Positions 10,515 through 57,967 of a stretch of DNA of 64,000 nt are shown piece by piece. The notes under the pieces were generated by a model. The model saw only the letters and a list, made by a program, of their open reading frames with translations. It did no database searches and had not been told where the DNA came from. The stretch lies in NCBI RefSeq assembly GCF_964355755.1, contig NC_092676.1:9215888-9279887 (forward strand), in the 5' to 3' direction. The DNA is from Antedon mediterranea (lineage: Eukaryota > Animalia > Echinodermata). Position 1 is the stretch's first letter; every line of letters begins with the position of its first letter. The translations under genes were made by a program, and so were the position numbers.

Positions 10515-13500
10515 TTATCTATCTGCCTCCGACGTCTCCAAGCACCATGAACAAGCATTTTGGAACATCTTCATCCACGGTGACGCTTGTAATGTCTCCC
10601 GCCAATCTTGCGGCATCCATGGCCATTGCCACGTCAAAGTTGTACGCTCTGGATGAGGCATGATCGCCAGATGACGGCCATCTGCGGAGCAAATTGCCGC
10701 TACGCCATTGGGTGAGCCATTGGGGTTCAACGGGTATTCAGTTGTCACTTCTCCTTTGTCATCGACAAAGCGCACTGGTGCAAGATTTTCAGACAGAACT
10801 GTGTCTTTTGTTTCTTTGTTAGAAAACTTCATGTGCCCTAGAGAGAAACAATTTGAGTTGAGTAAATTTAATAACATTTTTAGTTAAATTAAAATATAAG
10901 TTTGTACTAAGCATCCATCATTATCAAGAGGTATCAATATCTAACCTTCTCCATGCTGTGTCCAGACACCAAGCACAGAGCCTTCCATTCCTTTCAGCAT
11001 TAAAGCAGGGCTTTCATTAATCTTTACAGCAACAAAACGAGACTCAAAACGCTCGGAAAGATTATGAGCAAGATGGACTCCTTGCTGAGCTGATGCTGCG
11101 TCTAAAAGACAATAACAAATAATTCATAATAAACAGTCTGTCAACAAATGGATATCAAAAAGTAGTTCATATTTTCTTTTTACTTGTCAAAGAGGCATTA
11201 CATGCTTTACACCGGTGTCCTACTACCACTACACTACTTACTAAATATACCTCATGATACCTTACCTGTAGTAAGCTCCTTGGTGACATCTGGAGCAACC
11301 CAGCCTAGCAGGCCCATTAGTTGGCAGCCATTGCATACACCCAGTGAGAAAGTGTCTTTCCTTGCTCTAAATGCATCAAACTGAGCACGCACAGCTGGGT
11401 TGAACAAAATAGTTGCTGCCCAACCTAAAATGATTAATAAACATTATTTAAATAAACTAGAATAAATATTTATTTAGGTTACTATCTGTCTAATACTAGT
11501 ATAATACTTGGTTACTGCTCCCGCATGTATTTTTGCTATGCTACAAAAAGTGCAATCAGAAAAGTATACCTTTTGCAGAACCACAAACGTCTGCAAAACT
11601 GAAGCCACCAACAAAAACTACTCCACGGAATTGATCGAGGGTGACTTTCCCGCAAGCTAAATCTTGCATATTGACGTCCCATGTTTCAAAGCCAGCCATG
11701 TGTAGTGTTGAACTCATCTCTCGATCTCCATTACTGCCTTCCTCACGGATCACAGCAACCTTTGGTTTCATTCCATCTATGGAAGGCCAATTATGATTAT
11801 GTATATGGTAACTAATGAGCCAAATTTAACTCGTATTACTTTAACAAATTAAAATTCAGAACAAGATAATCAATATTCCAAAATTGGTTCTAACCTTTAG
11901 AGCATCCCTTTTTAACAGAATTCAAATTTGTTGCAACAGGGTCAAAGGTTAATTTAAATGGTGGTGCTGTTCTATTTGCTAAATTGCGTTGCTCCACTTC
12001 AACACACTCTGGATTTGCTTGTAGTTTTTCCAGTTGAAAACTAGTCTCTTCCCACACGTCTCTAAGAACAGTCATCTTTTCATTCAAGACTTCTTTCTCA
12101 TTTACCGAGATGACAACCTATAATTTACATGTAAAATATTCAGATTCATTCTAAAAACCATCATAAATGATAAATGATCGTAAATAAATGTTCAAATATT
12201 GCTTCCATTTAAAAAAAACAAAAACTTACCATTGACCCTTGACCTGATCCACTAGAGTGACCAATTAGAGAACAAAGGACATTATTGTCACTGAACTGTC
12301 TACAAATGTCCTCACTAGCATTAGCTGTTACTTCTAACACCAGCCCTACTTCTTCAGCAAACAGAATATCAATTGCAGTTACTGAAAATAAATATATAAA
12401 GTCTTACAATGTATTATTGCTTACCAGAGGTTCTGGAACTATATGAAAGATTAAAATGACACTTTACAGATCCATTCGAGGCATTTATAGAGATAGCATA
12501 ATGCTTACCATCAGGTTCGGAAAGTTTGACGTCAATACCACAATTCCCAGAAAACGCCATTTCTAATAATGTTGTTACAATACCGCCATCACTAATATCA
12601 TGACCAGCTGATATTTTTCTATCTACAAAAGGATACAAAAGACAAAGTTGAATTCATATCTCTAAAGCTCTGTCTACACTATCAAACTTTATGTGATGTG
12701 ATATGTCCATATATGGACATGATATCATATCACTACCATTTTTGGGAATTTCACTACCCTATTTAGGCGCATCACATTTTTTTGTCAAACTAGTTTGATA
12801 GTGTAGACAGCGCTTTATATTATAACTACAAGTAAATGAATTTATTGTAAACGTCTAATTAATAAGTCTATGAAAATGACTACCTTTGATAAGATTTTGC
12901 GTTGTGTTGAAAGCCCTTACAAACGTTTCCGGTTCATCGAGATCAGGCGAGGATTGTCCGAGTTGATTATAGCACTGAGCGAGGGCACTACCACCTAACC
13001 GGTTATGCCTTTTACCAAATGAAACCCAGAGCAAAGTCCCTGAAATAGAATATGTAAAGTCTTGTTTATAAATATATTATATTTTTTGTTTGTTTAGGTA
13101 GTTAATTTAATTGTACCTAACAAAATGTGCAATGTTATATTCACTTTACCTTTACTGTCTGGACATTTAAGGTCAGGGGTCACAGTTGCAGTAATATCTG
13201 GGCATGCCACATACACAGACACAACCAATGCACCTAAAAAATTGTAATTGATATTTCATTATTAGTAAGTAAATGGAGTAAAGAAGTGTATTAGTGTATT
13301 CAAGCTTAACTTATTAAAATAATTCACAATATTGTACATCAGACTCTATACTAGTTATTAACAAGCATGAAATGTCTAACCTGGAGCTTTGATCGTTTCA
13401 GAGCCTATCCTGGCAGCCATACTCAAAGAGTCCTTCCCACCATCCACAGCAACACCCAACTTGCCCATCACCTCGCACATAGCCTCGCATGCATCATACA

Positions 13501-55500: not shown

Positions 55501-57967
55501 TTATGTTCCAGCCAGTGAGTTTGAGTATCCACCTTGTATACATTATTCTGTATTTATAACACACCTGATTGTATTTTTACAATTTGATTGGTTAATTACC
55601 CATCACTTGTCATTTTTCATTAGCCTAACATAACGGAAAAGTGATATCAAATGCTGATGAGCGCTCTAATGCACATTCAGCTATTGAATGTCAACATTTT
55701 GAGAATTTTTGCCATGCAACATTGTTCGAAAATCAACTTGTGTGCTAAAAAAACTTCTTCTCCGTGTTTGACCTTTGCCTTTTTTATTGGCCTAGCTTTC
55801 CAGCCTAGCATTGGTCAACAATTTACGGTGGATAAATTGAATAAAAGTAGGTGTGTTGTAATAATACAAATAATTAATATTTTGTATTCGTTGATTCAAG
55901 AGAATATTTTAATCAATGACAAATTGACTGTTTTATTTTCAAATCATCTCCACCTCGTTAAAAATAGAGTAGTAAATTTGTCAACTCATGAAATATTCTC
56001 CATCTCATAAAGATTCATTATTTTTATTATCTTTTTGGTTATCTATTTCCAATTTAAGGAACAAATTTACAGGCTCTGATTAACCACACACAAAACCCAT
56101 CAAAAACAAGTGAAGCTGAAATTGTACTCGTGATTTCAAATGTTGCTGATGTTTTAGGTTTAGAGAGAGCTAAGAAAGCTGGTATACCAACTAAAGTAAG
56201 GTTTTTTTTCCACTCACACAATGTATTATCAAGCCCACCTTAAACAAACCAAAAATGTTGCAAGCCTGGATACATTGTGAACTCTAATGGCATTTAAACC
56301 AAATCTTGTGTTTGAGGGTGGTACGGTACTTTGATAAATAATGATTAATCTGGTTTCTGAAAATGTTTTATTATTAGTCATGTAAAAAATGGTAGATTAA
56401 AATTCACCTTGGAATGAAATTGAAATTATATATTTACAAATGACAATACATTTACTTACTTACTTATTGAGGGCTTTTAAATTTTAAGAGCAAAGAAAAT
56501 AAATCTATGACCAGTTTAGATAGGCAAAGATCATTGCCCCTTTTTTGCTACTCGATATTAGTATTGTTTATTTTTGTATTTTTATATGATAGGTTATCAG
56601 TCATAAAGGGTACAAAGAAAGAGTTGAATTTGACAAGTTTGTAAGCGATGCTCTAAATGAGGCTGGAGTAGAGTTTGTCTGCCTAGCAGGGTTTATGCGT
56701 ATCCTAAGTGGAGAGTTTGTAAGAACATGGCATGGTCGTTTGATCAATATTCACCCATCTCTACTGCCCTCATTCAAGGGAATGCACGCCCAGAAATTAG
56801 CCTTAGAAGCAGGTGTTAGAATAAGTGGTTGCACGATACACTTTGTTGAGGTAAGTGAATTTAAGTAGATTTTTGGTTTTATTTACTGAGTTTGACTAGA
56901 TAAAACTACAGTAAACTTAACTACACCATTACTCCATGACTACACTATTCTCTACTGAGTTAATGGTAGTTATAACACACCTGAGTAGATTCTTTTTATT
57001 AGATAATTGTGGGTCACATGATATTCAATAAATGCTCCATTGAGCCCATACGTCGTCAATCGTGCAATTTTTGTATATGGCCCTTAAACATTGGTTATAA
57101 TTATTATGTACCATGTTTATTCTGGGAGTGGAGCTGTAGCTTGGTGATTAACGTACTTGCTTTCCAATCCCAGGGTTCAGGGTTCAATCCTTATGTAGTA
57201 CTAGGGATGTAACTCTAAATTCTTTCAACTCCACTCTCAAAGCCACAAACGAGACTTATTATAAGCACACATTAAATATTTTATCATCCTAAGTGATGAG
57301 CTGTTGGTATGAAAATATGTTTTAAAAGAGCAACCATGCGCGTCACAAGGCTAGGCTATTGACTTTGTGTTCGAAAATTGACCAAATGTAGTGTGCGCCA
57401 GCTATAATTCTTCCACTCCATTTCTCAAATTGGAAGTGCTGACTTCTGTTTGAGTTTTATATCTACAAAGAGTAGTTCTCTGGAATGGCTTAACCTCATC
57501 TTAACATATGTGTATTCGTAATCGCATAAAATCCGGCCTCCCAATAATTTGCTACTGACAGTTGTTAACAACATCCATTGTACCAACGCTGAGGCTAGAC
57601 TAGGTAAAGTTACTGGAGAATTTTAATTTTGTGGGTTGACTAAAAGAAGAAATCCATTAAAAAGCGAGATGGTATTGATATGTTAGCCATTTTGGTTTTT
57701 GTTTTGTGACATTTTAGTGCTCTGAACTATTTATAATGACTTTATTATTGAAATGTGTTTATTTAGGAAGAGGTAGATGCAGGCGCCATATTGGTTCAAC
57801 GAACAGTACCAGTAAAGTCAAATGATACAATCACATCCTTACAAGAACGAATCAAAACAGCTGAACATGTTGCATACCCCACAGCACTTGAGCTTGTTGC
57901 TAGGAAGATTGCAGTACTTGGTGATAATGGTACAATTCAATGGAATGGGGAACCAGATGACCTTTGA
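49503..57967 (+). CDS. GART: Trifunctional GARS-AIRS-GART purine biosynthetic protein; last 12 exons (about 812 aa); N-terminal ~200 aa not in window
   Basis: Exons: 49503-49628, 50065-50152, 50565-50819, 51790-52021, 52729-52945, 53290-53488, 53984-54232, 54460-54819, 55282-55398, 56059-56195, 56593-56850, 57767-57967. Sum is 2439 nt, in frame. Motifs: [21 protein letters not shown] and [10 protein letters not shown] (GARS); [22 protein letters not shown] (AIRS); [24 protein letters not shown] (GART). Confidence 0.96.
49678..49880 (+). mobile_element. Probable tRNA-derived SINE in a GART intron
   Basis: A-box-like atggccgagcagttaa and a body containing gataagtactataaaccgtaggtcc; degenerate. 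Confidence 0.4.
51580..51718. mobile_element. MITE, same family as 12666-12814
   Basis: ctgtctacactatcaaact...agtttgatagtttagacagagcttta. Confidence 0.8.
53811..53933. mobile_element. MITE, same family, degenerate
   Basis: aagctttgtcta...agtttgatggtgtagacagaacttta. Confidence 0.65.
57128..57200 (+). mobile_element. tRNA-derived SINE head
   Basis: gtggagctgtagcttggtgattaac...gctttccaatcc...gggttcaatcc (A and B boxes). Confidence 0.5.

What the first reader, a model, noticed from the sequence alone, without database searches (positions are those of the whole stretch)
10515..57967. PFAS and GART, enzymes of interleaved purine-pathway steps, are physically linked; PFAS may be nested antisense inside a GART intron
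Seen: a complete PFAS on the minus strand, and GART on the plus strand starting at an internal exon (SLAFTDG..., about residue 200). I found no GARS N-terminal exon (GxGGREH, VVGPE, GLAAGKGV) anywhere in the preceding 49.5 kb. Established: GART catalyses steps 2, 3 and 5 and PFAS step 4 of de novo IMP synthesis, and both are purinosome core enzymes. In humans they lie on different chromosomes, the known vertebrate linked pair is PPAT-PAICS, and the classic gene nested in Drosophila Gart is an unrelated cuticle gene. Inference: either GART has an intron over 49 kb hosting one or more PFAS copies, or this GART is a 5'-truncated copy. Both readings point to an animal purine gene cluster covering four consecutive steps.
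Basis: partly seen in the sequence, partly recalled or inferred. Interest (0 to 1): 0.85.

Follow-up and report, generated by a model that had tools for sequence, protein, structure and literature searches.

The report
Amplified PFAS array beside truncated GART
A feather star carries an estimated eight to ten near-identical copies of the normally single purine-making gene PFAS, and the copy seen here lies next to a front-end-missing duplicate of its pathway neighbour GART, likely the scar of a recent rearrangement rather than a working gene cluster.

Summary
Both genes are real and lie as described, but nesting and a four-step cluster are not supported. The products equal Antedon mediterranea RefSeq models. 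The GART is the 803-aa model lacking residues 1-203; a separate full-length GART lies on the same 30.56-Mb contig. The PFAS is one of 6 near-identical sequences on that contig; a seventh, parent-like one is on another contig. Read depth backs amplification: PFAS:GART is 5.1 and 6.1 in two runs of this species, 1.0 in a relative. The two ends of the window's left half repeat each other (0.7% diverged), so PFAS is likely a tandem unit whose last repeat breaks in the PFAS 3' flank and joins a GART intron at 49389-49390. Spliced contigs of one RNA-like run carry the alleles of the other loci. PFAS and GART are on different contigs in 9 of 9 other animals. What is new is a recent, roughly ninefold PFAS amplification that happens to end in a same-pathway gene. 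The scan's index showed no earlier finding of this.

The parts
10515..19250 (-). PFAS, complete coding region, 21 exons, 1355 aa; one copy of a multi-copy family
   Evidence: identical to XP_071957192/205/206
1..10357 (.). Segment A: PFAS's own 3' flank running into the spacer of the unit to the left; first candidate poly(A) signals of PFAS at 10097 and 10071
   Evidence: contigs bridge 10357/10358 at full PFAS depth in two runs, and a contig of the relative runs 13 nt across it
20361..49390 (.). Segment B: same-orientation copy of segment A (0.74% substitutions over 9.4 kb) with two extra insertions
10358..49390 (.). Inferred tandem unit (PFAS plus spacer), 39 kb here, about 19.6 kb without the two insertions
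   Evidence: inference
49389..49390 (.). Rearrangement junction: PFAS 3'-flank copy joined to a GART intron over 2 shared bases, 158 nt short of where the next PFAS stop codon would be and 119 nt before the GART exon
   Evidence: A/B identity ends at 49390; one DNA contig shares the intron only from 49389 and has 793 unlike letters upstream, another starts exactly at 49389
49510..57967 (+). 5'-truncated GART duplicate: 12 open exons, half of GARS_A, GARS_C, complete AIRS and formyltransferase; residues 1-203 missing
   Evidence: identical to XP_071956831
22465..38386 (.). 15.9-kb foldback-type insertion of 190-bp tandem repeats with inverted ends and a 15-bp target duplication; only in B
41632..45094 (+). 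LINE with an open 1068-aa endonuclease-reverse transcriptase frame; only in B

Best explanation
The window holds a complete PFAS gene and, 30 kb away, a GART duplicate that lacks its first 203 residues; it is likely the right-hand end of a recent tandem PFAS array that a break-and-rejoin event likely fused to the back two thirds of a second GART copy, with the working genes likely lying elsewhere. Shown: gene structures, the missing exons, the A/B repeat, the junction position, at least 6 near-identical PFAS sequences annotated on this contig, raised depth. Inferred steps: (1) a PFAS segment with its own flanks was copied from the parent locus on another chromosome to the GART chromosome; (2) the same or a linked repair event (template switching or end joining, 2-nt overlap) duplicated GART from the intron before residue 204 onward; (3) unequal crossing-over then multiplied the PFAS unit and keeps the copies alike; (4) transposons entered single units. 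The GART copy cannot do step 2 and has no evident promoter or first exon, so it is probably silent; the PFAS copies are probably weakly expressed or drifting.
For: Two GART loci on one contig; window equals the short one. Seven PFAS sequences in one 90% cluster, 6 on the 30.56-Mb contig, 1 on a 31.90-Mb contig; five array sequences form one clade (100/99) sister to the lone copy (the sixth was left out for its defective N-terminus). Full-length array sequences differ by 1-7 aa from each other and 28-32 from the lone copy. Depth ratio PFAS:GART 5.05, 6.12 in this species, 1.03 in organism B; PFAS is 8.4-10.5 times the 30-37x class of unique contigs in X4 and 10.0 times a parent-type bubble in X3. 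A is PFAS's native flank, so 49389 is the new join. Spliced or exon-bounded contigs of X5 carry the lone PFAS's residue at 2 of 2 diagnostic sites and the full GART's residue at 7 of 7. Signs of decay: 2 of 6 array sequences lack 4 aa of a stretch with three near-invariant columns, 2 more have N-terminal gaps. Unlinked in 9 of 9 other animals. No cluster of 10 from other invertebrates shows more than two models per assembly.
Against: The truncated GART has 12 open exons with no frameshift, and listed window-side changes are 10 synonymous to 5 non-synonymous (P=0.001 against an assumed neutral 74%), so most of its divergence arose under selection; this needs a diverged working allele as the source, or current function. 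The window's PFAS is intact, and its excess of derived changes is not significant (19 to 9, P=0.09). The full-length GART also has changes at conserved columns. No contig bridging 49389 with window sequence on both sides was shown (table cut). Only one RNA-like run, from another individual; contigs drop minor variants. Tandem order is seen directly for one repeat only. Depth is rough and X3/X4 may be the assembled individual. Ending in a same-pathway gene is a low-probability coincidence under this model.
Confidence: 0.7

Rival explanations
1. A young pathway cluster under selection: extra PFAS dose (step 4) is kept together with a GART fragment that retains exactly steps 3 and 5, expressed as a bifunctional AIRS-formyltransferase from the internal Met at 49530 in some tissue or stage.
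For: AIRS and formyltransferase domains are complete; frame open over 12 exons; synonymous excess; several full-length PFAS copies; amplification absent in organism B; landing next to a same-pathway gene is unlikely by chance (inference).
Against: X5 contigs show only the other loci's residues (2 of 2, 7 of 7); the useless half-GARS exons are as well kept as the rest, as expected if the copy is merely young; no first exon or promoter seen; 4 of 6 array sequences carry deletions or N-terminal defects; 4 of 8 copy-specific GART changes hit columns at least 89% conserved.
Confidence: 0.12
2. True nesting: a second GART was split by insertion of the PFAS array into the intron before residue 204; its first exons lie beyond the left end of the array, so the array sits antisense in an intron of 150 kb or more.
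For: The break is inside an intron, 119 nt before an intact acceptor; all downstream exons are open; the DNA left of the window could not be read.
Against: No second Antedon 5' half among cluster members or among the 20 best shorter proteins (best 58-64% identity); RefSeq's full model carries the other locus's residues; the contig with the native upstream intron has depth 36.6, the single-locus level, against a mean of 51 for the other listed GART contigs.
Confidence: 0.1
3. Assembly artefact: two divergent haplotypes of one GART locus were both placed on the chromosome, or contigs were misjoined at 49390 or in the satellite.
For: Differences between the two GARTs are symmetric (8 to 6 derived) and mostly synonymous, as between alleles; the spacer holds 16 kb of satellite; depth units could be haploid rather than diploid.
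Against: A contig of X3 starts exactly at 49389, the mark of a fork with two upstream paths; X4's unique contigs fall into 14-21x and 30-37x classes, which makes 30-37x the diploid unit and puts GART above it; PFAS amplification is in the reads regardless; A and B flank the satellite collinearly with a target duplication.
Confidence: 0.08

Closest known systems
Recent tandem gene arrays and segmental duplications with a truncated paralogue at the breakpoint (general class; from my own knowledge)
   Same: Near-identical head-to-tail units with introns and flanks, short overlap at the junction, a 5'-truncated neighbour, unit-specific transposon insertions, some decaying copies.
   Different: The amplified gene is a core housekeeping enzyme that is single-copy in the other invertebrate assemblies checked, and the breakpoint partner belongs to the same pathway.
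PPAT-PAICS head-to-head pair (shared bidirectional promoter; PMC2444028, passages seen)
   Same: Two de novo purine genes, adjacent, pointing away from each other.
   Different: 30 kb of repeats between them, GART has no 5' end to share a promoter with, and the link is not conserved.
Drosophila Gart locus with nested Pcp (PMC3160391, passage seen)
   Same: Another gene on the opposite strand near GART exons.
   Different: There the host gene is whole and spliced across the guest; here no upstream host exons were found and the neighbour is a multi-copy pathway enzyme.
Trifunctional GART (human 2qk4, 2v9y, 1meo) and PFAS (9n9w)
   Same: PFAS aligns over residues 4-1351; AIRS and formyltransferase domains align whole.
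   Different: The GART copy matches 2qk4 only from chain residue 233 on: GARS_N and half of the ATP-grasp are missing.

Membership tests
PFAS (large single-chain PurL) | FGAR-AT_N, linker, two PurM-like lobes and glutaminase domain in one open frame | tested here: met
PFAS (large single-chain PurL) | This copy is transcribed and active | tested here: inconclusive
   Spliced X5 contigs carry the lone copy's residues at 2 of 2 diagnostic sites; one run, minor variants are dropped
Trifunctional GART | Complete GARS (GARS_N, full GARS_A, GARS_C) | tested here: not met
   No GARS_N; GARS_A only from profile position 106 of 194 in the 803-aa model
Trifunctional GART | Complete AIRS and formyltransferase domains | tested here: met
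Nested gene | Host exons on both sides of the guest | tested here: inconclusive
   None in the window; none annotated as a protein; flanking DNA not held
Nested gene | Host transcript spliced across the guest | not testable with these tools
   Upstream exons are outside the window; only contigs of one RNA-like run were available
Metabolic gene cluster | Non-homologous genes of one pathway adjacent | tested here: met
   PFAS start 19250, GART exon 49510
Metabolic gene cluster | Intact enzymes for the claimed steps 2-5 | tested here: not met
   GARS missing; at most steps 3-5
Metabolic gene cluster | Linkage kept in relatives | tested here: not met
   Different contig lengths for GART and PFAS in 9 of 9 species; Anneissia scaffolds are short, so that case is weak; linkage in organism B not tested
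Metabolic gene cluster | Co-expression of the linked copies | tested here: inconclusive
   X5 contigs point to the other loci
Head-to-head pair like PPAT-PAICS | Two 5' ends close together sharing a promoter | tested here: not met
   30 kb of repeats between; GART 5' end absent
Tandem array / segmental duplication | Several copies over 90% alike with introns and flanks | tested here: met
Tandem array / segmental duplication | All copies head-to-tail at one place | tested here: inconclusive
   One repeat seen in the window; other models share the contig but have no coordinates here

The most novel reading that the evidence does not exclude
An animal is caught assembling a purine-pathway cluster: PFAS amplified about ninefold under selection and joined to a new bifunctional AIRS-formyltransferase gene, so that steps 3, 4 and 5 (the making, conversion and use of FGAR and FGAM) are encoded side by side and raised in dose together, in one feather-star species and not in its close relative.
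Probability: 0.12. Interest if true: 0.8.

Novelty: new variant of a known kind. Interest (0 to 1): 0.45.

Why it matters
PFAS was single-copy in the chromosome-level invertebrate assemblies checked, so a species-specific ninefold amplification is odd and, in the 10 literature searches run here, unreported. If it is selected, it points to an unknown demand on purine synthesis, or to an inhibitor of this enzyme, in crinoids, and would be a rare case of a primary-metabolism cluster forming in an animal. If neutral, it still shows a rearrangement joining two same-pathway genes from different chromosomes, which bears on whether co-regulated genes are preferred rearrangement partners. It also warns that the short GART model should not be counted as a second enzyme.

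Tried and rejected
Whole-genome check: no genome is held, so flanks, array order and PPAT/PAICS/ADSL/ATIC neighbours could not be examined beyond the window; none was seen among open frames of 80 aa or more. Helitron or other large-element end at 10357/49390: considered because depth is high there; rejected because the many loose ends sit at 10303-10342, a 50-nt mini-repeat, and PFAS contigs cross 10357. No holder on record as RNA was listed; X5 is a guess, though it shows two spliced joints. Bins without X5 cover over PFAS (19 of 30) prove nothing. RefSeq accession order was not used to place loci. Dating by protein asymmetry gave no significant result (P=0.09 PFAS, 0.79 GART). The atlas look-up of the spacer frame 8987-9325 gave no result; its copy at 48021-48359 has no Pfam hit. 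No folds or complexes were run. Literature: searches returned 0 papers; 26, 27, 30 one each; 21, 35, 48 listings with nothing on PFAS amplification or PFAS-GART linkage. PMC9526060 and PMC13079724 (passages) had no bearing. Earlier-finding look-ups showed nothing on this locus.
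Full report
Observation. Open-frame scanning and Pfam place PFAS exons on the minus strand between 10.5 and 19.3 kb and GART exons on the plus strand between 49.5 and 58 kb. Guided splicing gives PFAS 21 coding exons, all GT-AG, 1355 aa, and GART 12 exons (one GC donor), both open. 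Residues 1-203 of GART are not in the window: 0 of 19 pieces hit better than E=0.1, against 8 of 8 controls at E<=2e-13. The likely acceptor is before 49510, not 49503, because the full-length protein reads S-V-L-A-F (inference).

Identity of the genes. The best GART hit is from the crinoid Antedon mediterranea. Its cluster has three members, all on a 30,557,870-base contig: two isoforms of a full-length gene (1012 and 1000 aa) and a separate 803-aa model. The window's GART equals the 803-aa model letter for letter and differs from the full one at 18 aligned residues. So a whole GART exists at another locus. A search among shorter proteins with residues 1-201 returned 20 hits of 58-64% identity and no Antedon fragment (7,997 candidates scored; an unannotated fragment would be missed).

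PFAS is multi-copy. Its cluster has 7 sequences: 6 (8 accessions) on the same 30.56-Mb contig and 1 on a 31.90-Mb contig. The window equals one of the 6. Identical accessions may be one gene, so the count is at least 6 loci. Five of the 6 (the N-terminally defective one left out) form a clade with 100/99 support, sister to the lone copy, with Anneissia outside. The lone copy is closer to Anneissia (196 against 203-206 differences), so it is likely the parent. As a control, 10 PFAS clusters from other invertebrates show no assembly with more than two models; the doubles are in two fragmented assemblies and a lancelet hybrid.

The amplification is in the reads. From listed contigs of 250 nt or more (tables are cut; other-type contigs left out), length-weighted depth of PFAS against GART is 2797:554 in X3, 312:51 in X4 and 190:184 in X8, a related organism. 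PFAS is 10.0 times a parent-type bubble in X3 and 8.4-10.5 times the 30-37x class of unique contigs in X4. This fits about nine PFAS loci and two GART loci per haploid genome, if 30-37x is the diploid unit; contig depth is a rough measure and X3 and X4 are one sample, possibly the assembled one. The relative shows no amplification.

Anatomy of the join. Window 1-10357 (A) repeats in the same orientation as 20361-49390 (B), with 0.74% substitutions; B alone holds a 15.9-kb foldback element and a LINE. A ends 158 nt from the PFAS stop; B ends 119 nt before the GART exon. Which join is old? Contigs cross 10357/10358 at full PFAS depth (2848 in X3, 244 in X4), a contig of the relative runs 13 nt across it, and PFAS's first candidate poly(A) signals lie inside A. 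So A is PFAS's own 3' flank. At the other end, an X4 contig shares the GART intron only from 49389 and has 793 unlike letters upstream, and an X3 contig begins exactly at 49389. B was therefore cut inside a copy of the PFAS 3' flank and joined to the GART intron over two shared bases. A contig bridging this join was not among the rows shown, so read support is indirect. The native-intron contig has depth 36.6, the single-locus level, which argues mildly against a second 5' half of GART.

Expression. X5 is a guessed RNA run from another sample. It shows spliced joints at two PFAS introns. Its spliced PFAS contigs carry the parent's residue at 2 of 2 diagnostic sites (a third change is shared with most array copies, a fourth matches neither); its exon-bounded GART contigs carry the full-length gene's residue at 7 of 7 non-synonymous sites listed (40 of 555 and 40 of 118 variant rows were shown). 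One unspliced array-type contig suggests that this individual also has the array. Contigs drop minor variants, so low expression of the copies is not excluded.

Selection. Among listed coding sites where X5 and the relative agree against the window, 10 are synonymous and 5 are not (P=0.001 against an assumed 74%). This counts against a long-dead pseudogene. It fits either current function or recent copying from a diverged working allele; the intact but useless half-GARS exons favour the second. Among PFAS copies, two lack 4 residues of a conserved stretch and two have N-terminal gaps.

Conservation. In Antedon itself the parent-like PFAS and the full GART are on different contigs. That the human genes lie on different chromosomes is recalled, not checked.

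How it likely arose. A PFAS segment was copied to the GART chromosome; a repair event duplicated GART from this intron on; unequal crossing-over multiplied the unit; transposons entered single units. A variant is a deletion that removed one PFAS copy and the front of an already duplicated, head-to-head GART; the window cannot tell these apart. Landing in a same-pathway gene has a chance of roughly 1 in 1,000 to 10,000 per junction (my estimate; genome size not measured), which is low but not beyond a scan of many genomes.

Known systems. PPAT and PAICS share a bidirectional promoter (PMC2444028, passages); Pcp is nested in intron 1 of Drosophila ade3 (PMC3160391, passage). This locus fails the tests for both and for a four-step cluster. 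Ten searches of the open library found nothing on PFAS amplification or PFAS-GART linkage in animals; subscription papers and supplements were not seen.

Verdict. Observation confirmed; interpretation partly supported. A recent, species-specific PFAS amplification ending at a truncated GART duplicate: a new variant of a known kind, interest 0.45, with a 12% chance of being a selected young cluster.

Noticed in passing
window 22465-38386: Foldback-type element of 15.9 kb: about 320-bp unique inverted ends, inner arms of 190-bp tandem repeats (17 and 64 copies) that flip orientation at about 26040, and a 15-bp target-site duplication, which from memory is long for an element with inverted ends.
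   Followed up: partly
window 41632-45094: LINE with an uninterrupted 1068-aa endonuclease plus reverse transcriptase frame, absent from the sister segment, so recently inserted.
   Followed up: partly
window 10292-10342 and 49325-49375: High-copy mini-repeat of about 50 nt with a short hairpin, found with many different flanks in both organisms.
   Followed up: partly
window 12645-12817, 16508-16600, 51585-51738, 53838-53930, 59409-59565: Very abundant short inverted-repeat family in introns of both genes.
   Followed up: no
window 54233: GC-AG intron donor in the GART copy.
   Followed up: no
P0122 (full-length Antedon GART): Leu replaces a Phe of the GARS ATP-grasp domain that is invariant in the other GARTs aligned; the truncated copy keeps Phe.
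   Followed up: no
window 19251-19260: A pyrimidine tract and AG lie 3 nt before the PFAS start codon, so an untranslated first exon is likely upstream; whether the repeated unit includes it and the promoter is unknown.
   Followed up: no
window 475-3185, 21021-22464; 8513-9325 and 47547-48359: 896-bp tandem repeats with a 100-aa frame, an integrase-like fragment (label from my own reading; no Pfam hit) and a 113-aa frame without Pfam hit in the spacer.
   Followed up: no
window 62376-63133: Degenerate 758-bp inverted repeat (70%) downstream of GART.
   Followed up: no
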